From the sequence record MK672798.1: a stretch of DNA of 59,463 nt. One strand, written 5' to 3'. Positions 27,804 to 34,690 of this stretch are shown here, piece after piece. The notes beneath the pieces were generated by a model that was given only the letters and a program-made list of their open reading frames with translations, was not told the origin of the DNA and did no database searches. The stretch is from Escherichia phage Skure. The position numbers and the translations under genes are program-made. Every line of letters begins with the position of its first letter. Positions within the stretch are counted from its first letter, which is position 1.

Positions 27804-28030
27804 TAGCGATCCTCGATTGCTCTAATTGTGGTTAAATCTAATTCGCAGGTTGGAGGGTATCCATAAAGTCCCATTTGTTTTCCTTGTGCATTAAACCATG
27901 TACCTGACGGATCCTGCCATTGCTTAGGTGTCTTGTGGAGAAATACTACTCTGTTTTCACCGTAATAATTAATTCTTACGCCTGTGTGAGTATATTTACG
28001 TTTACCTTTTGGTCTTCTTAAGTTAGCCAT
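27803..28030 (-). CDS. hypothetical protein
   Basis: 75 aa between DpdA and the polymerase accessory gene. Confidence 0.4.
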   Translation of the reverse strand: MANLRRPKGKRKYTHTGVRINYYGENRVVFLHKTPKQWQDPSGTWFNAQGKQMGLYGYPPTCELDLTTIRAIEDR

Positions 28031-28950
28031 CAGAACAACTCCATTACACGATCACGGAATGTGCCGTCATGGGTGGCGTTAATGTTTGCAGCAATTACAC
28101 CATACGCCCATAAGTTGAAGGCAGCACGTGATTCATAGATTGTTGATAAACGTTCGTAAGTGAAACCGTTTTGCTCAAGGTATTTAAGGACAGCGTCTTG
28201 TTCAATTTCAGTTAATGTTGAAACATGCTTACCAAAATGATGGCGGTCCGGTGACTTATCTGAAACGCGCATTGGTCCCCACGGAGGGGTAACCACACTT
28301 CCAAACGCTGCCGCTTGTATCCAGGAGGATGAGTCGCAGCTATACCACGGGTAACGTTCCATAATGGTTGTGGACGTAATACCAAACGCATGAAGTTTAA
28401 TCTTAGCACGTCCGCTACCGTCGCAAATGTATTTGTCCCACATGCGGTCAAGCCAAGTCTTAAGCGTGTCCGTGGAACGCCCTACCATGCCCCCGATGGT
28501 GATATATTCGTAGTTCTTCATGTAGTATTCAAGATAGCGGAAGTCCTCCCCAAAGTGAAAGCAAGGTAACGGTTTAGCACCGCGTGCTTCCATTTCAAGC
28601 TGGTTACGGTAGGTTTGTAGCGGATCACCGATACCATCGAGCACCGATGCCATCACCGCACCATCTTCTACGCGAAGGATGTCTTTGTTACGCTTAATGT
28701 ATTCGCAGTATTCAACAATATCAATGTGAGCACCCAAAGAGTGCGCGGAGAATGCACCGGAGTCGAGAAACACTTTAGCCCCGTCCGCACGCATCTGATC
28801 AACATACTTTTGACGTCCAACGTAGTGGTATGATTCCAAAATATGGGGCAGATTGCGCGTGATATTTTTCTCATGCTCCGACAGCTTTTCATAACGCTGC
28901 TGCCCGGGCATATATCCGTTTGTGTAAACTGCTGCCATAAAAACGTTCAT
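28030..28950 (-). CDS. dpdA: DpdA-like DNA-guanine transglycosylase (TGT superfamily)
   Basis: 306 aa; KVFLDSGAFS resembles the TGT catalytic DSGGFQ region; embedded in preQ0 biosynthesis genes; GGAGGA RBS. Confidence 0.7.
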   Translation of the reverse strand: MNVFMAAVYTNGYMPGQQRYEKLSEHEKNITRNLPHILESYHYVGRQKYVDQMRADGAKVFLDSGAFSAHSLGAHIDIVEYCEYIKRNKDILRVEDGAVMASVLDGIGDPLQTYRNQLEMEARGAKPLPCFHFGEDFRYLEYYMKNYEYITIGGMVGRSTDTLKTWLDRMWDKYICDGSGRAKIKLHAFGITSTTIMERYPWYSCDSSSWIQAAAFGSVVTPPWGPMRVSDKSPDRHHFGKHVSTLTEIEQDAVLKYLEQNGFTYERLSTIYESRAAFNLWAYGVIAANINATHDGTFRDRVMELF

Positions 28951-29224: not shown

Positions 29225-29815
29225 TTATTTACAAGCTTCAAGGAACTCCCGGCGCCATTCTTTACCAATATCGCTACCATGCTCCAGTTCTGTAGCGCCC
29301 CGGAACGCTTTGGTAATAGTAGAGCTTCCGCATACCTGCTTGACGCCACGACTTTCCATGCACATATGCTTGGCGTCAATATAAACACATACAGCTTTCG
29401 GGTTTAAATGCTCCTGAATAGCGTCTGCAATCTGGTTAGTAAGACGTTCCTGAACTTGCAGTCGACGACTAAAAGCATCCACAACGCGAGACAGCTTACT
29501 AAGCCCAACGATCTTCCCATTGGGGACATAACCCACAACAGCACGCCCGATAATAGGAGCCATGTGATGCTCACAATGACTGTATACAGGAATATCACGG
29601 ACAATGACCATTTCATCCGCACCTTCCGCACCATCTTCAAAGGTTTTAAACAATCCAGCGATATCTACATCGTAACCGCTGAACCACGTTGCATAAGCTT
29701 TCGCTACACGCTCCGGAGTTTCCATCAACCCATCACGCAGACCTTCTTCTGCTTTTACGCCTTCAATCTGACGCAGGATAGAAATAATATTCGCTTCGAG
29801 TATTGTTTTATTCAT
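29225..29815 (-). CDS. folE: GTP cyclohydrolase I
   Basis: 196 aa; canonical CEHH motif and VGYVPNGKIVGLSKL region. Confidence 0.9.
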   Translation of the reverse strand: MNKTILEANIISILRQIEGVKAEEGLRDGLMETPERVAKAYATWFSGYDVDIAGLFKTFEDGAEGADEMVIVRDIPVYSHCEHHMAPIIGRAVVGYVPNGKIVGLSKLSRVVDAFSRRLQVQERLTNQIADAIQEHLNPKAVCVYIDAKHMCMESRGVKQVCGSSTITKAFRGATELEHGSDIGKEWRREFLEACK

Positions 29816-29851: not shown

Positions 29852-30373
29852 TTACAGGCTATAATTTACGTGACATTTCGAAGTTTCTTCGATGGTGCAT
29901 TCTACAAGTTGAACACCATGCTCGTCAAGCAGTTGCGGCCCAATTACTTCAACCATGTATGCAGCTAAGTTTTCCGCAGTTGGGTTGAACGGTAGAGCTA
30001 CCAGTGAATCAACGAAATGTGAGTGCTCTTCTTCTGTAATATAACCTTCACTTTCATCCGCTAAAACATCACGAAGACCGATAAGTAAGTGATCTTTTTC
30101 CCAATGCAGGAACTTATGATCCCAGTTATCTTCCAGCCACTGGCAAAGCGTAGTTTTAACCACACTGAAGTCGATAACACGACCAACACTGTCCAGGCCT
30201 CCTTCTAGCGTCAGTTTACCGCACGTAATCTTTTTAACATCCGTGCGACCTTTCGGGGCAACCTTAAAGTGAAACTTATAGTTATGTCCGTGAAGATGTC
30301 GACATTTGCTTTCATGTCCTACAACACGGTGCCCAGCGCAAATTTCATGTGAACGGATCACTGTATAGCTCAT
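29852..30373 (-). CDS. queD: 6-carboxy-5,6,7,8-tetrahydropterin synthase
   Basis: 173 aa; CxxxHGH zinc motif (CRHLHGHNY); AGGAGA RBS. Confidence 0.85.
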   Translation of the reverse strand: MSYTVIRSHEICAGHRVVGHESKCRHLHGHNYKFHFKVAPKGRTDVKKITCGKLTLEGGLDSVGRVIDFSVVKTTLCQWLEDNWDHKFLHWEKDHLLIGLRDVLADESEGYITEEEHSHFVDSLVALPFNPTAENLAAYMVEVIGPQLLDEHGVQLVECTIEETSKCHVNYSL

Positions 30374-30374
30374 T

Positions 30375-30698
30375 TTATTCTCCTAACTCTGCTTTAACCG
30401 CTGCTTCGATATCTTCAAGGGCTTTAAGTTCATGAGTATAGTAACTCATATCATCTGGTTCAGTCGACTCTTCGTGCATGGTTTCTAATGCTTGACGCCA
30501 TATAGCTATGTGACCTTTAATCATACATGCAAGCGAACTATGACCTTTGTAAACTGCTTTGTCCACTTGCATCTGTGGGTTGAATTGCACAATAGCATCT
30601 TCAACAAGATCAATCAGATCATATGCTTGTTGAGGGACTGGGTTTCCAAATGCTTTATGAGCTATACCCATTCTTGCTAAATTACTTATCCTATTCAT
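30375..30698 (-). CDS. hypothetical protein inside deazaguanine cluster
   Basis: 107 aa, AAGGAG RBS, no recognisable motif. Confidence 0.45.
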   Translation of the reverse strand: MNRISNLARMGIAHKAFGNPVPQQAYDLIDLVEDAIVQFNPQMQVDKAVYKGHSSLACMIKGHIAIWRQALETMHEESTEPDDMSYYTHELKALEDIEAAVKAELGE

Positions 30699-31264
30699 TT
30701 CGATACTCCTTTCGATTGTTCAATTTCTAACGCACGCTGTGCGGACGCAATAATGTCTTTTAAGTCTTCTACCAGACTTTTATGCCCGCGCTCACCGGGT
30801 TGCAATGCTTTTTTGATAAGGTGTTGCAGAGCTGGGTTCGTTGTTTCCCAGGCGGTAAGAACATCATACACATCTACAACAATTGAAGCAACATGCCCGT
30901 CAATATCTTTACCGCGGATAAGGCGCTGGTATTTGGTCAGACGGTTATCTTCAGGATAGCTCTGGTAACGCGCTTCTGGAACCGTCATTGCAATTTCCAT
31001 CACTTCTTTAAACTTGTGCTCGGTTATTGGGTCTTTGCTGGTCATTTGTTGATTAATTGGCTCTTCAATGATGTAACGCCAAGCAGTCACATCAAATTGT
31101 GTGGTCATTGGGATTGGCGAATATGACCATATCCAACCAGCTCCGCGATGGTTTCTTAAAACGTTACCATTTCTTAGTTTCACTTCAAAATGGTCATTCT
31201 GAAGATAGACGGGCATCCCTTTGCCGTCGTGTTTGTGCCAAATTTTATCCAGATTATCTTTCAT
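30695..31264 (-). CDS. hypothetical protein inside deazaguanine cluster
   Basis: Start placed at internal ATG (MKDNLDK) one nt after upstream stop; about 189 aa; no recognisable motif. Confidence 0.45.
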   Translation of the reverse strand: MKDNLDKIWHKHDGKGMPVYLQNDHFEVKLRNGNVLRNHRGAGWIWSYSPIPMTTQFDVTAWRYIIEEPINQQMTSKDPITEHKFKEVMEIAMTVPEARYQSYPEDNRLTKYQRLIRGKDIDGHVASIVVDVYDVLTAWETTNPALQHLIKKALQPGERGHKSLVEDLKDIIASAQRALEIEQSKGVSK

Positions 31265-31265
31265 T

Positions 31266-31745
31266 TTATGCTCTCGCTGTACGTGAATGAACTTCGTAAA
31301 CAACCCAAAGGATAGCTGATGCTGTGAACTTACTTAAGCTCATTGCTACCATCGATCCCGGATTTACAATACCAATAATACTTAAGAATACAATGGAGTC
31401 AATTGGTACTGCGACCAAAGAGCTGATAAATACTCGTTGATGGAAAGGCTTCTTGGTGACCGTGTATACCACATAGTCAGCAAACTCGCTAAGTGCAAAT
31501 GACGCAACGGATGCAACTACAACCGCAGGATCCCCGAACACCCAGCTAAGAATGCAACCGACAATCATTGCAGGGATAACGCCTTTGCCAGCGTTACGCT
31601 GTGCGTAGTCACGCAGGACGAAGATAATACCTACGAAGAAAGCCATCATGGGTACTACGCCAAGCGGCGTGTTAAGTATTGGAAGGTAGGAAAAGCCCAG
31701 GTTTACGAACGTAATTGCAGCCAGGTAAGCAACGATAAATTTCAT
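31266..31745 (-). CDS. integral membrane protein, putative queuosine-precursor (preQ0/preQ1) transporter of the YhhQ/COG1738 type
   Basis: 159 aa, about 5 TM helices; sits between queC and queD; assigned by context, not by motif. Confidence 0.4.
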   Translation of the reverse strand: MKFIVAYLAAITFVNLGFSYLPILNTPLGVVPMMAFFVGIIFVLRDYAQRNAGKGVIPAMIVGCILSWVFGDPAVVVASVASFALSEFADYVVYTVTKKPFHQRVFISSLVAVPIDSIVFLSIIGIVNPGSMVAMSLSKFTASAILWVVYEVHSRTARA

Positions 31746-31865
31746 ACTTTTGTTCTCCAGTTTTAACAGCGTTATTCGCTGGTTGTTGGGTTTAAAAGCT
31801 TTAGTAGTATAGTTGGGTTACCGCACCCTAAACAATGCGCTAGCGGTGCGGTTTTCGCGGTAAGA

Positions 31866-32588
31866 TCAAACGTGTTTGCTGTAAGCGTTATCCATAAATT
31901 CAGTGTAACCCTTAGCACGGAGTTTACACGCTGGGCATTCCCCGCAACCGTATCCCCAGTCATGCAAAGTTCGACGAATGCCGTTATAGCAGGTGTGCGA
32001 CTGTTCAATAACTGTGGTTAAGAAACCAACCTTGTCCGCCAGCTCAAACGTTTCAGCTTTGTTTAAACGCATAAGTGGGGTAACAAAATGAATATCTGTT
32101 TCATATCCAACGTTTAAGGTAGCTTCAAGCAAATCAACAAACTGCTGACGGCAATCCGGATAACCGCTATAGTCCGTTTCACATACGCCTGTAACCACAT
32201 ATCGGGCTCCGACCTTCTGCGCGTAAGCGTGCGCGGTTGTCAGAAAAAGCGCATTACGATTTGGCACAAAACTTGCCGGAAGGTTATTGTGCTGTTCGTG
32301 ATGCTCGTTGACATCACCTTCGTTCCCGATCAAAGCGCTATTACCAATCTGTTTCAAAGCTGGTAATTCGAAGACAACAAACGGGACATTGTGCTCTTTA
32401 CAAATTTGATTAGCACAAGCCAGCTCAATGTTATGACGTTGACCGTATGCAAAACCAATAGCGTAAACTTTATCATAGTTATTAAGCGCAAGACCTAGAC
32501 AAGTCACGCTGTCCTGACCGCCAGACAGGACCACAACGGCGGAGTTATGATTTTTTACAGGGAACACCAGTTTATCTAATTTATTCAT
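31866..32588 (-). CDS. queC: 7-cyano-7-deazaguanine synthase
   Basis: 240 aa; PP-loop VVLSGGQDS; C-terminal zinc ribbon CxxCxxC (GCGECPACK); no fused amidotransferase domain. Confidence 0.9.
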   Translation of the reverse strand: MNKLDKLVFPVKNHNSAVVVLSGGQDSVTCLGLALNNYDKVYAIGFAYGQRHNIELACANQICKEHNVPFVVFELPALKQIGNSALIGNEGDVNEHHEQHNNLPASFVPNRNALFLTTAHAYAQKVGARYVVTGVCETDYSGYPDCRQQFVDLLEATLNVGYETDIHFVTPLMRLNKAETFELADKVGFLTTVIEQSHTCYNGIRRTLHDWGYGCGECPACKLRAKGYTEFMDNAYSKHV

Positions 32589-32787: not shown

Positions 32788-32983
32788 CTTTAATATAACA
32801 AGGGTTGATTGTTACATTTGACATTACAATTGGATGATTACGTGCTCCAATTGTACTAACGTGATTAATATCTAATTCTACATGCACACCCTGCATAGTA
32901 GCATGGGCAATTGCAGAATTAAGTTTTTCTACCAGCTCAGTAATCATTTCCTGATGCTGTTTTGCTTCTTCTAAAGTGATCAT
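32771..32983 (-). CDS. hypothetical small protein inside deazaguanine cluster
   Basis: 70 aa; stop overlaps next start. Confidence 0.35.
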   Translation of the reverse strand: MITLEEAKQHQEMITELVEKLNSAIAHATMQGVHVELDINHVSTIGARNHPIVMSNVTINPCYIKGVENE

Positions 32984-33690
32984 TATTCCACTCCGATATA
33001 TTTGTGAACCTGAAGCTGCAACGTGTAACCGTGTTTCATACAGCTTTGGACAACGGCTTGGATATTACTGTGGTTAAGGTCTTCATCCTGCTCGTCCATT
33101 GGCTGTAAATATATCTTACCCTTGAACCCCTTCGGAGGTCTAGCGATAAATGGCGTAGCTTGATGATCTAATGCTTGAAGAGGTAAACCATCTTCCACGT
33201 TTACACAGCACGCTTTAAGTACATATTTAAATGCATTAGCGCGGCGCAGCACAGAAGGATGAATCTTTGAGGTCTTAGGACTACATACAATCACAGGTAA
33301 CTGGGAAAAGTTCTTAGGTAAAGGCATAGACCCATTAGTTTCAATTTGCACCAAATAGCCGCGCGATAACAGTTGTTCAATAAACGGGTTAATTTGCTGA
33401 CGGAACGGTTCACCCCCAGTGATAACCACAAGTGAGGTGCTATTGCCGGATTCCAGCTTACGGCTTTCGATTAAACGCATAATATCGACAATATGATAAA
33501 GACTACGACCAACAGTATAATCCGTATCACAGCCAGGACATTGCAGGTTGCACCCAGCAAGACGCACAAATACAGCAGGTTGGCCGCAGAATGGACCTTC
33601 ACCCTGAATGGTAGAGAATACCGAATGCACGTCTAAATACATATCGTTTTCTTTAGAACGGGGCTCGGGAGCTTGTTGATTAATATTCAT
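32983..33690 (-). CDS. queE: 7-carboxy-7-deazaguanine synthase (radical SAM)
   Basis: 235 aa; LAGCNLQCPGCDTDYT cluster-binding motif typical of QueE. Confidence 0.85.
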   Translation of the reverse strand: MNINQQAPEPRSKENDMYLDVHSVFSTIQGEGPFCGQPAVFVRLAGCNLQCPGCDTDYTVGRSLYHIVDIMRLIESRKLESGNSTSLVVITGGEPFRQQINPFIEQLLSRGYLVQIETNGSMPLPKNFSQLPVIVCSPKTSKIHPSVLRRANAFKYVLKACCVNVEDGLPLQALDHQATPFIARPPKGFKGKIYLQPMDEQDEDLNHSNIQAVVQSCMKHGYTLQLQVHKYIGVE

Positions 33691-33759: not shown

Positions 33760-34563
33760 TTACAAGCCGTTCAGGGCTTCCGGTACTGGCATAGGTACGC
33801 GACCAGTCACACCATTAAACTTCTTCCAACGTGCATACTGAGTTTTAACAGTATCTTCGTTCAGACCGTGACGACCTGCCAGATTCAGAACATAAGAGAT
33901 CGGAGCAGGCTGACCCAGCGTAGCGCTAATCTGGTCCATCAGAGCCCAGGCACGACCGCAGGAAGTTTCCGGTTGCGGACGACGAACACCATTCTGTTCA
34001 GGCATACGGTTCGCTTCTTTCGCTTTTTCACGTTCAGCTTTTTCGCGGGCTTTTTCAGCAGCCTTTTCAGCCTGTTTAGCAGCGCGGATCTTGTCTTTGA
34101 AGCCTTTGATAGACGAATCCAGTTCGTCGACCATGCTCTGAGCAGCAGTTACTGCACCGGACAGATCTTCACCTTTGGATTTTTTAACAACTGCTTTCAG
34201 ATCTTTCAGAGCATTCTTTAAATGCTTCAGCTGTTCGGAACCCTTAGATTCTGCTTCCGTAATCTGTTCAACAGTGCTTTCATCGGTAATACCGGATAAA
34301 GCAAACTTCACGGTTTCAACTGCCTGGGAAAGAGCGGTAAATTTATTTTCCGCTTCAGTACGAATTTCAGCTTGTTTCTTTTCAGCGGCAGCTTTTTTCT
34401 CTGCTTCTTTTTTCTCTTTTGCTACGCGTGCAGCTTCAGCGGCAGCGGCTTTTTTAGCTTCTGCGTCGTTAGCAGTAGCTTCTTTCTTTGCAGGCTTAGC
34501 AGATTTTGCAGCGGCAGCAGCGGCTGCGGCAGCAGCGGCTTTCTTATCTTCAATATTACTCAT
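33760..34563 (-). CDS. Ala/Lys/Glu-rich protein with poly-Ala tract and conserved C-terminal domain (function unknown)
   Basis: Start at ATG 34563 (GGAG RBS) rather than GTG 34572; 12-residue poly-Ala; C-terminus ...QYARWKKFNG paralogous to the protein at 50611-51225. Confidence 0.5.
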   Translation of the reverse strand: MSNIEDKKAAAAAAAAAAAKSAKPAKKEATANDAEAKKAAAAEAARVAKEKKEAEKKAAAEKKQAEIRTEAENKFTALSQAVETVKFALSGITDESTVEQITEAESKGSEQLKHLKNALKDLKAVVKKSKGEDLSGAVTAAQSMVDELDSSIKGFKDKIRAAKQAEKAAEKAREKAEREKAKEANRMPEQNGVRRPQPETSCGRAWALMDQISATLGQPAPISYVLNLAGRHGLNEDTVKTQYARWKKFNGVTGRVPMPVPEALNGL

Positions 34564-34690
34564 TTTCTTCACTCCGAATTATTATGGGTTCGTTTGTTAC
34601 CAACGGGGTTAAATGTACCAAAGGATTTTGTGACACGCAACCCCTTACATAAACATTTTTAAAAATATTTTTGATCAGGGTTAGAACTTA

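What the first reader, a model, noticed from the sequence alone, without database searches (positions are those of the whole stretch)
31266..31745. Membrane protein inside the biosynthesis cluster, possible precursor salvage transporter
A 159 aa polytopic membrane protein lies between queC and queD. Carrying a preQ0/preQ1 importer alongside a complete de novo pathway would let the phage use both synthesis and scavenging. The assignment is by context and topology only.
Basis: inference. Interest (0 to 1): 0.4.

Follow-up and report, generated by a model that had tools for sequence, protein, structure and literature searches.

The report
Phage copy of preQ0 importer YhhQ
This is a real, conserved phage gene for a compact membrane protein related to the bacterial YhhQ/QPTR importer of queuosine precursors; it most likely imports the modified base preQ0 for the phage's DNA-modification pathway, and it is already annotated and published as such in the near-identical phage CAjan, so the finding is correct but ordinary.

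Summary
The ORF exists as described: 31266-31745, minus strand, 159 aa, GGAG ribosome-binding site, pN/pS 0.04-0.09 against relatives. The window is about 99% identical to Escherichia phage CAjan, and the protein is 99.4% identical to CAjan gp41, annotated "putative preQ0 transporter". It is published as yhhQ (Hutinet 2019; Kot 2020), and a deletion mutant showed no loss of DNA modification in rich medium.

On its own the protein falls just below curated cut-offs: Pfam Vut_1 25.7 bits against 27.2, TIGR00697 21.6 against 50.95. Homology is still solid:
- All 34 members of the compact family hit Vut_1.
- A profile-profile comparison with a diverse YhhQ alignment gives E 3.5e-6 over 140 columns, covering all predicted helices.
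- The conserved polar core is in register (N15, D46, R50, D90, D116, K139).

There is no QueT match and no preQ1 riboswitch.

Context beyond this phage also supports import. Of 45 viral loci with this compact protein, 40 have a DpdA-like gene nearby (baseline 0.47% of phage records). In about 25 loci it is the immediate neighbour and no preQ0 synthesis genes are in the fetched stretch.

Verdict: most likely a solitary 7-deazaguanine (preQ0) importer. Transport has never been assayed for a phage member. Already known; low interest.

The parts
31266..31745 (-). Gene for a compact (159 aa) VUT/QPTR (YhhQ-type) membrane protein; the finding itself
   Evidence: ORF. Vut_1 E 1.6e-5 and phrog_4899 E 1.2e-47. 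99.4% identical to CAjan gp41 'putative preQ0 transporter'. hhalign against a YhhQ profile E 3.5e-6. AlphaFold2 model pLDDT 84.6. pN/pS 0.04-0.09.
31755..31758 (-). Shine-Dalgarno GGAG, 9 nt upstream of the ATG
   Evidence: Read directly from the sequence.
31820..31852 (-). Stable hairpin (ACCGCACC...GGTGCGGT) in the 120-nt queC-transporter gap; role unknown, and not a known riboswitch
   Evidence: The 131-nt stretch folds at -28.4 kcal/mol, z -2.1. No Rfam match. Conserved in Seuratvirus loci L001 and L007-L009; replaced by other GC-rich hairpins at the same position in L011 and L013.
31866..32588 (-). queC (7-cyano-7-deazaguanine synthase), upstream neighbour
   Evidence: Pfam QueC E 7.7e-75; TIGR00364 243 bits, above its cut-off.
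32983..33690 (-). queE (radical-SAM 7-carboxy-7-deazaguanine synthase)
   Evidence: TIGR04322 E 5.7e-28; phrog_2076 E 7.3e-69.
30695..31264 (-). Unknown-function gene (CAjan gp40 homologue). Its ATG follows the transporter's stop with a 1-nt spacer (TAAAATG), so it is probably translationally coupled.
   Evidence: Junction sequence; phrog_23361 E 2.2e-103 with no function assigned; CAjan annotation.
30375..30698 (-). Unknown-function gene (CAjan gp39 homologue)
   Evidence: phrog_24659 and no Pfam hit.
29852..30373 (-). queD (6-carboxytetrahydropterin synthase, PTPS fold)
   Evidence: Pfam PTPS E 1.9e-20; phrog_2389 E 1.2e-53.
29225..29815 (-). folE (GTP cyclohydrolase I)
   Evidence: Pfam E 9.9e-63; TIGR00063 above its cut-off.
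28030..28950 (-). dpdA (DNA guanine transglycosylase), the consumer of the preQ0 base
   Evidence: phrog_887 E 8.2e-96. Annotated as the 7-deazaguanosine-inserting enzyme in relatives. The CAjan delta-dpdA mutant loses all modification.

Best explanation
The gene encodes a compact, phage-borne member of the VUT/QPTR (YhhQ, COG1738, PF02592) superfamily. It sits in the host inner membrane and imports a 7-deazaguanine base, most likely preQ0, from the medium. The imported base adds to the preQ0 pool made by phage FolE-QueD-QueE-QueC, and DpdA swaps that base into phage DNA as dPreQ0.

Shown here or in the literature:
- The gene is real and under selection.
- It is homologous over its full length to genuine YhhQ, with the conserved polar core retained.
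- It is tightly and repeatedly linked to dpdA in unrelated phage lineages.
- E. coli YhhQ is required for preQ0/preQ1 salvage at 10 nM.

Inferred:
- The phage protein transports at all.
- The substrate is preQ0.
- The direction is inward.
- It works alone, without an ECF energising module. E. coli K-12 has none, and no such module is apparent among the genes annotated around it in CAjan or scanned in the window cluster.

Likely benefit: about a quarter to a third of the G residues in this phage type are replaced, so the demand for base is high. Scavenging or recapturing free preQ0 is cheaper than making it from GTP. In phages that carry only DpdA plus this protein, import may be a main supply route.
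For: Homology:
- Vut_1 E 1.6e-5 and TIGR00697 E 1.5e-4 for the single protein.
- All 34 family members hit Vut_1, best E 4.7e-8.
- hhalign of the family against 18 diverse YhhQ representatives gives probability 87.6%, E 3.5e-6, with phage residues 1-146 aligned to YhhQ 15-194.
- The most conserved residues of both families coincide: N15/N28, D46/D57, R50/R61, S79/S115, D90/D126, S108/S146, D116/D154, F120/F158, K139/K186.

Structure:
- The AlphaFold2 model is confident, with pLDDT 84.6 and pTM 0.74.

Context:
- 40 of 45 viral loci with this compact protein have a DpdA-like gene in the fetched stretch. Two more have one elsewhere in the genome.
- The baseline is 236 of 50,697 phage records.
- In 12 loci an unambiguous short DpdA (hhalign E 3.5e-69 to the CAjan type) abuts the gene (11 directly, one about 180 nt away), and no FolE/QueD/QueE/QueC lies in the stretch.
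- The complete genomes of Arthrobacter phage Aoka and Roseobacter phage CRP-701 have the protein next to a DpdA-like gene and no preQ0 synthesis genes at all.

Function of the family and prior assignment:
- YhhQ is needed for preQ0/preQ1 salvage in E. coli, and K-12 lacks ECF modules (PMC5372724).
- Other groups made the same assignment independently (PMC6884629, PMC7544227, PMC10484667, PMC8310023).

Selection: pN/pS 0.035-0.089.
Against: - No transport assay exists for any phage member.
- The protein misses both curated cut-offs and is only about 22% identical to E. coli YhhQ, with no significant pairwise BLAST hit.
- Substrate specificity varies within the family: E. coli YhhQ takes preQ0/preQ1, while the Chlamydia protein takes queuine only (PMC11130926).
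- The CAjan delta-yhhQ mutant has wild-type modification in BHI, so the gene is dispensable there.
- The host already has YhhQ, so the added value of a phage copy is unexplained.
- There is no preQ1 riboswitch upstream.
- In 13 of the gene-pair loci, including both complete genomes, the neighbour is a phrog_15826 protein. Its relation to DpdA is weak: hhalign E 3e-4 to 9e-4, and no Pfam or PDB hit.
- The 45 loci are not phylogenetically independent.
Confidence: 0.7

Rival explanations
1. It is a transporter of the same superfamily but for a different substrate: preQ1, queuine, another purine-like base, or a vitamin. The link to preQ0 would then be indirect.
For: Substrate preference differs between characterised QPTR members, and Zallot et al. 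argue that the family is not homogeneous. The phage clade is a separate, deeply divergent branch that scores below the 'queuosine precursor transporter' equivalog cut-off. Several of its invariant residues differ from the residues usual in YhhQ (R45, Q49, E87, R104, P114).
Against: CAjan DNA carries dPreQ0 and the phage has no queF, so preQ0 is the base its DpdA needs. The gene repeatedly abuts dpdA in phages from unrelated hosts. According to PMC8310023, the protein is found in QueC-type (preQ0) Seuratvirus and Vibrio phages.
Confidence: 0.13
2. It acts on 7-deazaguanines but not as a net importer. It could be an exporter or detoxifier of excess preQ0, or a membrane anchor or scaffold for the modification enzymes.
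For: The direction of transport is not known for the phage protein. The host already has an importer. A phage that overproduces preQ0 might need to manage the pool. The tightly coupled unknown gene downstream (TAAAATG junction) could be a partner.
Against: The characterised homologues are importers. Pairing with DpdA in genomes that lack any preQ0 synthesis makes export pointless there. The S-component-like fold is that of substrate-capture import proteins.
Confidence: 0.07
3. It is a phage membrane protein with an unrelated role (holin-like lysis, superinfection exclusion, or a decaying passenger gene), and the Vut_1 similarity has no functional meaning.
For: The deletion mutant has no phenotype in the one condition tested. 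The single-sequence scores are below the curated thresholds.
Against: Purifying selection is strong. 22 columns are invariant across relatives at 41-80% identity, including the polar positions shared with YhhQ. Holins appear only as non-significant structural hits, E about 1. The gene sits in the replication/modification module rather than the lysis module in every genome examined.
Confidence: 0.04

Closest known systems
Escherichia phage CAjan gp41 (YP_009196835), 'putative preQ0 transporter' / yhhQ
   Same: 99.4% identical over 159 aa, in the same position between queC and gp40 in the same 12-gene deazaguanine cluster. For practical purposes it is the same gene in a sister isolate.
   Different: One amino-acid difference. 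The window is a different isolate (59,463 bp against 59,670 bp).
E. coli YhhQ / QPTR (COG1738, PF02592 Vut_1, TIGR00697, TC 2.A.88)
   Same: Homologous across all predicted helices, with the same conserved polar positions. The predicted topology is N-in/C-in, matching the cytoplasmic C-terminus reported for YhhQ. Both are linked genomically to deazaguanine genes.
   Different: 159 aa against 221 aa. The phage protein lacks about 14 N-terminal and about 25 C-terminal residues, and has shorter TM3-TM4 (about 20 aa) and TM5-TM6 (about 8 aa) loops. Identity is about 22%. It scores below the equivalog and Pfam cut-offs. It is phage-borne and feeds DNA rather than tRNA modification. It has no preQ1 riboswitch. 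It has not been assayed.
Solitary ECF-type S-components (BtuM 8ovv, BioY 4dve, RibU 3p5n, ThiT 3rlb)
   Different: No sequence similarity (8-18% identity; no Pfam or PDB sequence hit). Foldseek does not support the match. This is a resemblance in how it may work, not membership.
QueT / QrtT (ECF S-components for queuosine precursors)
   Same: Same proposed physiological job, the uptake of queuosine precursors.
   Different: No detectable sequence match to the QueT/QrtT Pfam families. Those proteins depend on an ECF module that E. coli K-12 lacks.

Membership tests
VUT / QPTR superfamily (Pfam PF02592 Vut_1; COG1738) | Score at or above the Pfam gathering threshold (27.2 bits) | tested here: not met
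   25.7 bits, E 1.6e-5, covering residues 66-145 only. It is a near miss. Many close relatives carry a precomputed PF02592 hit, and all 34 family members hit at E<=0.01.
VUT / QPTR superfamily (Pfam PF02592 Vut_1; COG1738) | Full-length homology to experimentally characterised YhhQ by profile-profile comparison | tested here: met
   hhalign of A1 against A3: probability 87.6%, E 3.5e-6, 140 columns, phage 1-146 aligned to YhhQ 15-194. A global run gave E 8.9e-6 over 152 columns.
VUT / QPTR superfamily (Pfam PF02592 Vut_1; COG1738) | Conserved polar residues of the family retained in register (N28, D57, R61, S115, D126, D154, F158, K186 in E. coli numbering) | tested here: met
   Phage N15, D46, R50, S79, D90, D116, F120 and K139 are each at least 90% conserved in the phage family and align with those positions.
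VUT / QPTR superfamily (Pfam PF02592 Vut_1; COG1738) | Six transmembrane helices with a cytoplasmic C-terminus | tested here: inconclusive
   Hydropathy and the positive-inside rule fit six helices with N-in/C-in. DSSP on the AlphaFold2 model gives five long helices plus a hairpin, and merges the predicted TM2 and TM3 into one element, residues 37-69.
Queuosine precursor transporter equivalog (NCBIfam TIGR00697 / NF008406) | Score at or above the curated equivalog cut-off (50.95 bits; 252 bits for NF008406) | tested here: not met
   21.6 bits for TIGR00697 and no hit to NF008406. Eight other compact or intermediate relatives score 23-38 bits. E. coli YhhQ scores 229.6 and 391.8 bits.
Queuosine precursor transporter equivalog (NCBIfam TIGR00697 / NF008406) | Transport of preQ0/preQ1, shown by complementation of delta-queD delta-yhhQ | not testable with these tools
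   Needs the wet-lab assay of PMC5372724. No published assay of a phage member was found.
Queuosine precursor transporter equivalog (NCBIfam TIGR00697 / NF008406) | Genomic association with 7-deazaguanine pathway genes | tested here: met
   The gene sits inside the folE-queD-queC-queE-dpdA cluster here. 40 of 45 viral loci have a DpdA-like gene in the fetched stretch, against a baseline of 0.47% of phage records.
Queuosine precursor transporter equivalog (NCBIfam TIGR00697 / NF008406) | preQ1 riboswitch control (frequent in bacteria, not obligatory) | tested here: not met
   No Rfam family matched in 31600-32000 at E<=10, apart from two chance hits.
QueT / QrtT ECF S-components | Sequence match to the QueT/QrtT Pfam families | tested here: not met
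   Only Vut_1 was reported at E<=0.01 for the protein, and only Vut_1 recurred across the 34 relatives (one relative also had a stray Mem_trans hit).
ECF S-component fold class | Significant structural similarity to solved S-components | tested here: inconclusive

The most novel reading that the evidence does not exclude
The compact (about 150-170 aa) phage-borne QPTR clade forms a minimal two-gene 'import and insert' module with DpdA. Phages that carry only this pair would modify their DNA with 7-deazaguanine bases scavenged from the environment rather than made by phage or host. In CAjan-type phages the same protein would serve as a recapture or top-up route. On this reading, phage DNA hypermodification in some lineages depends on community-level exchange of queuosine precursors.
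Probability: 0.3. Interest if true: 0.5.

Novelty: already known. Interest (0 to 1): 0.2.

Why it matters
The finding matters little as a discovery. The gene, its YhhQ assignment and a deletion mutant are already published for CAjan and its relatives.

This re-examination is useful in three modest ways:
- It shows the annotation rests on genuine full-length homology rather than on context, even though the protein fails the curated thresholds. This explains why many relatives are still labelled "hypothetical protein".
- It shows that the phage proteins form a distinct, compact clade that has never been assayed.
- It shows that this clade is most often found directly next to dpdA in environmental phages with no preQ0 synthesis genes nearby. 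That is better support for an import role than the CAjan context, and it points to a simple experimental system for testing whether phages modify DNA with scavenged bases.

Tried and rejected
- **preQ1 riboswitch in the 120-nt gap upstream.** Rfam at E<=10 found nothing relevant. The gap holds only a hairpin.
- **QueT/QrtT membership.** No hit.
- **Pairwise BLAST against E. coli YhhQ.** Not significant, E 1.4 and 8.8.
- **hhalign of the family against the single YhhQ sequence.** Uninformative, probability 1.8%, because the template had Neff 1. It was superseded by the profile-profile run.
- **The search for homologous proteins with E. coli YhhQ.** It listed only relatives of at least 87% identity, too shallow for a profile. 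The 50%-clustered representative search was used instead.
- **Solved structures of the family.** None exist by sequence search, for YhhQ or for the phage family.
- **AlphaFold DB fold search.** The library was not available, so no direct structural comparison with a YhhQ model was possible.
- **Foldseek against the PDB.** No significant match.
- **Holin or lysis-protein reading.** Only non-significant BFVD hits.
- **Independent confirmation that the phrog_15826 neighbours (Aoka type) are DpdA.** No Pfam or PDB sequence hit, and hhalign is only E 3e-4 to 9e-4. I therefore count those 13 loci as 'DpdA-like, weak'.
- **First co-occurrence pass.** It missed DpdA in five loci. For two of them (Rhizobium phage RHph_N17 and Vibrio phage 1.117.O), whole-genome retrieval showed the full cluster 5-6 kb away.

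Full report
**1. The observation**

The window has an ATG-to-TAA ORF of 159 aa at 31266-31745 on the minus strand. The ORF cannot be extended upstream. A GGAG motif lies 9 nt before the start codon, and the stop codon is followed after one base by the ATG of the next gene (TAAAATG).

Hydropathy gives six hydrophobic segments. Positive charges cluster in the alternate loops and at both termini, which fits a six-helix, N-in/C-in membrane protein.

Against three relatives that differ at 4.8-9.4% of nucleotides, pN/pS is 0.035-0.089. The frame is therefore translated and constrained.

Two small genes of unknown function lie between the target and queD.

**2. Identity of the genome, and prior knowledge**

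A 6-kb stretch around the gene is 99.0% identical to Escherichia phage CAjan (Queuovirinae, Seuratvirus). The protein is 99.4% identical to CAjan gp41, which RefSeq calls "putative preQ0 transporter".

- Hutinet et al. 2019 included YhhQ in their survey and noted that some phages encode homologues (PMC6884629).
- Kot et al. 2020 name this gene yhhQ, draw it as an alternative preQ0 source for DpdA, and deleted it. The mutant's DNA stayed modified and restriction-resistant in BHI, whereas the folE, queC and dpdA deletions lost the modification (PMC7544227).
- Two later papers repeat the assignment for CAjan and for Enterobacter phage EC151.

I found no transport assay of any phage-encoded member.

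**3. Does the family assignment hold?**

The single sequence is a near miss.

| Test | Result | Cut-off |
|---|---|---|
| Pfam Vut_1 | 25.7 bits, E 1.6e-5, residues 66-145 only | 27.2 bits |
| NCBIfam TIGR00697 "queuosine precursor transporter" | 21.6 bits | 50.95 bits |
| Pairwise BLAST to E. coli YhhQ | not significant, about 22% identity | n/a |
| phrog_4899 (unannotated) | E 1.2e-47 | n/a |

A database search returned 107 relatives. Nearly all are 152-191 aa, and many lie on phage-sized contigs. An alignment of 34 of them (41-80% identity to the query) has 22 invariant columns, and every member hits Vut_1.

To compare full lengths, I built a profile from 18 full-length YhhQ representatives, 34-66% identical to the E. 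coli protein. hhalign of the two profiles gives 87.6% probability and E 3.5e-6 over 140 columns, aligning phage residues 1-146 with YhhQ 15-194.

The most conserved positions of the two families coincide:

| Phage protein | E. coli YhhQ |
|---|---|
| N15 | N28 |
| D46 | D57 |
| R50 | R61 |
| S79 | S115 |
| D90 | D126 |
| S108 | S146 |
| D116 | D154 |
| F120 | F158 |
| K139 | K186 |

The phage protein is therefore not a fragment. It is a compact version that lacks the N- and C-terminal tails and has shorter TM3-TM4 and TM5-TM6 loops. No QueT/QrtT similarity was detected.

**4. Structure**

No member of the family has a solved structure detectable by sequence.

Foldseek does not confirm this. 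It reports no significant PDB hit, and ThiT, BioY and FolT appear only at TM 0.33-0.38. I treat the S-component resemblance as suggestive. It is consistent with TCDB's placement of the family among vitamin-uptake/ECF-like porters, as described by Zallot et al..

DSSP on the model merges the predicted TM2 and TM3 into one long helical element, so the helix count (five or six) is not settled. The AlphaFold DB library was unavailable.

**5. Context beyond this phage**

I fetched 40 viral-contig loci that encode the compact protein, plus GenBank phages from other lineages. I scanned their six-frame ORFs with HMMs seeded from the window's proteins.

- 40 of 45 loci have a DpdA-like gene within the fetched stretch.
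- Two of the five exceptions (Rhizobium phage RHph_N17 and Vibrio phage 1.117.O) have the complete FolE/QueD/QueC/QueE/DpdA set 5-6 kb further away.
- CAjan-type DpdA is detectable in only 236 of 50,697 phage records.
- Under independence, 28 or more unambiguous DpdA loci out of 45 would have P of about 5e-54. The loci are related, so this figure overstates the case. The pattern does recur, however, in enterobacterial, Vibrio, Rhizobium, Roseobacter, Arthrobacter and uncultured marine phages.

The neighbours fall into three groups:

| Group | Loci | Relation to CAjan DpdA | Position |
|---|---|---|---|
| Long CAjan-type DpdA, in full clusters | 16 | the reference type | within the cluster |
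| Short (about 226 aa) DpdA | 12 | clear homologue, hhalign E 3.5e-69, phrog_887 | abuts the transporter gene (11 directly, one about 180 nt away) |
| About 200-aa phrog_15826 proteins (13th, L014, sits beside a long DpdA) | 13 | weak link, hhalign E 3e-4 to 9e-4 | adjacent or nearly adjacent to the transporter in 12 |

SEA-PHAGES annotators call the phrog_15826 type "DpdA-like" in phage Aoka. I could link it to DpdA only weakly, and it has no Pfam or PDB sequence hit.

None of the gene-pair loci has FolE, QueD, QueE or QueC in the fetched stretch. The complete genomes of Aoka (36.7 kb) and CRP-701 (29 kb) have none at all.

A transporter next to the base-inserting enzyme, in genomes that cannot make the base, argues more strongly for import than the CAjan arrangement does.

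**6. Mechanism**

The best-supported reading is a solitary inner-membrane importer of preQ0.

Established knowledge:
- E. coli YhhQ is required for salvage of 10 nM preQ0 or preQ1.
- It is an inner-membrane protein with a cytoplasmic C-terminus.
- E. coli K-12 lacks ECF energising modules, so the family must work alone there (PMC5372724).
- CAjan DNA carries dPreQ0, inserted by DpdA at two motifs, at about 44 per 1000 nt.

Inference:
- The phage protein keeps the conserved polar core and so binds a deazaguanine base.
- The base is preQ0, because that is what this DpdA inserts and the phage has no queF.
- Import supplements or recaptures the pool during the burst of DNA synthesis.

The energy source and the substrate-contacting residues are unknown.

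Points against the reading: no phenotype in the one mutant study, the presence of a host copy, varied substrate specificity within the family, and the absence of any assay.

**7. Rivals**

- A different substrate within the same superfamily is the main rival (0.13).
- Export or scaffolding (0.07) fits poorly with the DpdA-only genomes.
- An unrelated membrane role or a decaying gene (0.04) fits poorly with the strong constraint, the retained family core, and the consistent placement in the replication/modification module.

**8. Verdict**

The finding is already known for this very gene, so interest is low.

What is modestly new here:
- the full-length profile evidence;
- recognition of a compact phage-specific clade that falls below the curated thresholds, which explains the many "hypothetical protein" labels;
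- the recurrent transporter-DpdA gene pair in phages without preQ0 synthesis.

Noticed in passing
window 31820-31852 (minus strand), in the 120-nt gap between queC and the transporter gene: A stable hairpin (ACCGCACC...GGTGCGGT), with no U-run after it on the coding strand; on the plus strand it is followed by TTTTCG. It is conserved in Seuratvirus loci L001 and L007-L009. More distant relatives have different GC-rich hairpins at the same position (L011, terminator-like with TTTTTC; L013). There is no Rfam match. It could uncouple or attenuate expression of the downstream genes.
   Followed up: partly
window 30695-31264 (minus strand): The CAjan gp40 homologue (189 aa from the annotated ATG) starts one base after the transporter's stop codon (TAAAATG). 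It matches phrog_23361 (unknown function), and its C-terminal ~100 aa matches several other unannotated PHROGs. In loci L010, L012 and L014 the homologue sits between queC and the transporter instead, so it stays with the cluster in variable order.
   Followed up: partly
literature: Kot et al. 2020 (PMC7544227), Table 1; corresponds to window ~30695-31745: The published CAjan delta-yhhQ genome is 550 bp shorter than wild type (59,120 against 59,670), but yhhQ is only 480 bp, and the methods state deletions of 150-350 bp. If the listed position 31,850 is the start, the deletion also removes the 5' part of gp40. The 'no phenotype' result then applies to both genes.
   Followed up: no
L006 5274-5873 / L048 3721-4320 (Roseobacter phage CRP-701 gene 6): This gene is annotated 'ssDNA-binding protein'. 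It belongs to phrog_15826 (E 3.6e-53), the same family as Arthrobacter phage Aoka gp40 'DpdA-like tRNA-guanine transglycosylase', and it directly abuts the VUT-family gene. This is probably a misannotation.
   Followed up: partly
L014 12019-12954 and 12915-13553: One Seuratvirus-like contig carries a long CAjan-type DpdA immediately followed by a phrog_15826-type ORF. The phrog_15826 family may therefore be a paralogue or partner of DpdA rather than a simple replacement. Its link to DpdA is weak: hhalign E 3e-4 to 9e-4, with no Pfam or PDB hit.
   Followed up: partly
window 33760-34572 (minus strand): A 270-aa protein rich in Ala, Lys and Glu, with a run of 11 alanines near the N-terminus, lies just upstream of queE. 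It is annotated in CAjan as an FtrA-domain transcriptional activator. It is followed by a terminator-like hairpin (33735-33712) and overlapped by a promoter-like site (33765-33736) ahead of queE.
   Followed up: no
window 29852-30373 (minus strand): The phage QueD is 173 aa, but it spans only 118 positions of the 121-position PTPS profile across residues 5-171. It therefore carries an insertion of about 50 aa relative to canonical QueD, and it scores below the QueD equivalog cut-off.
   Followed up: no
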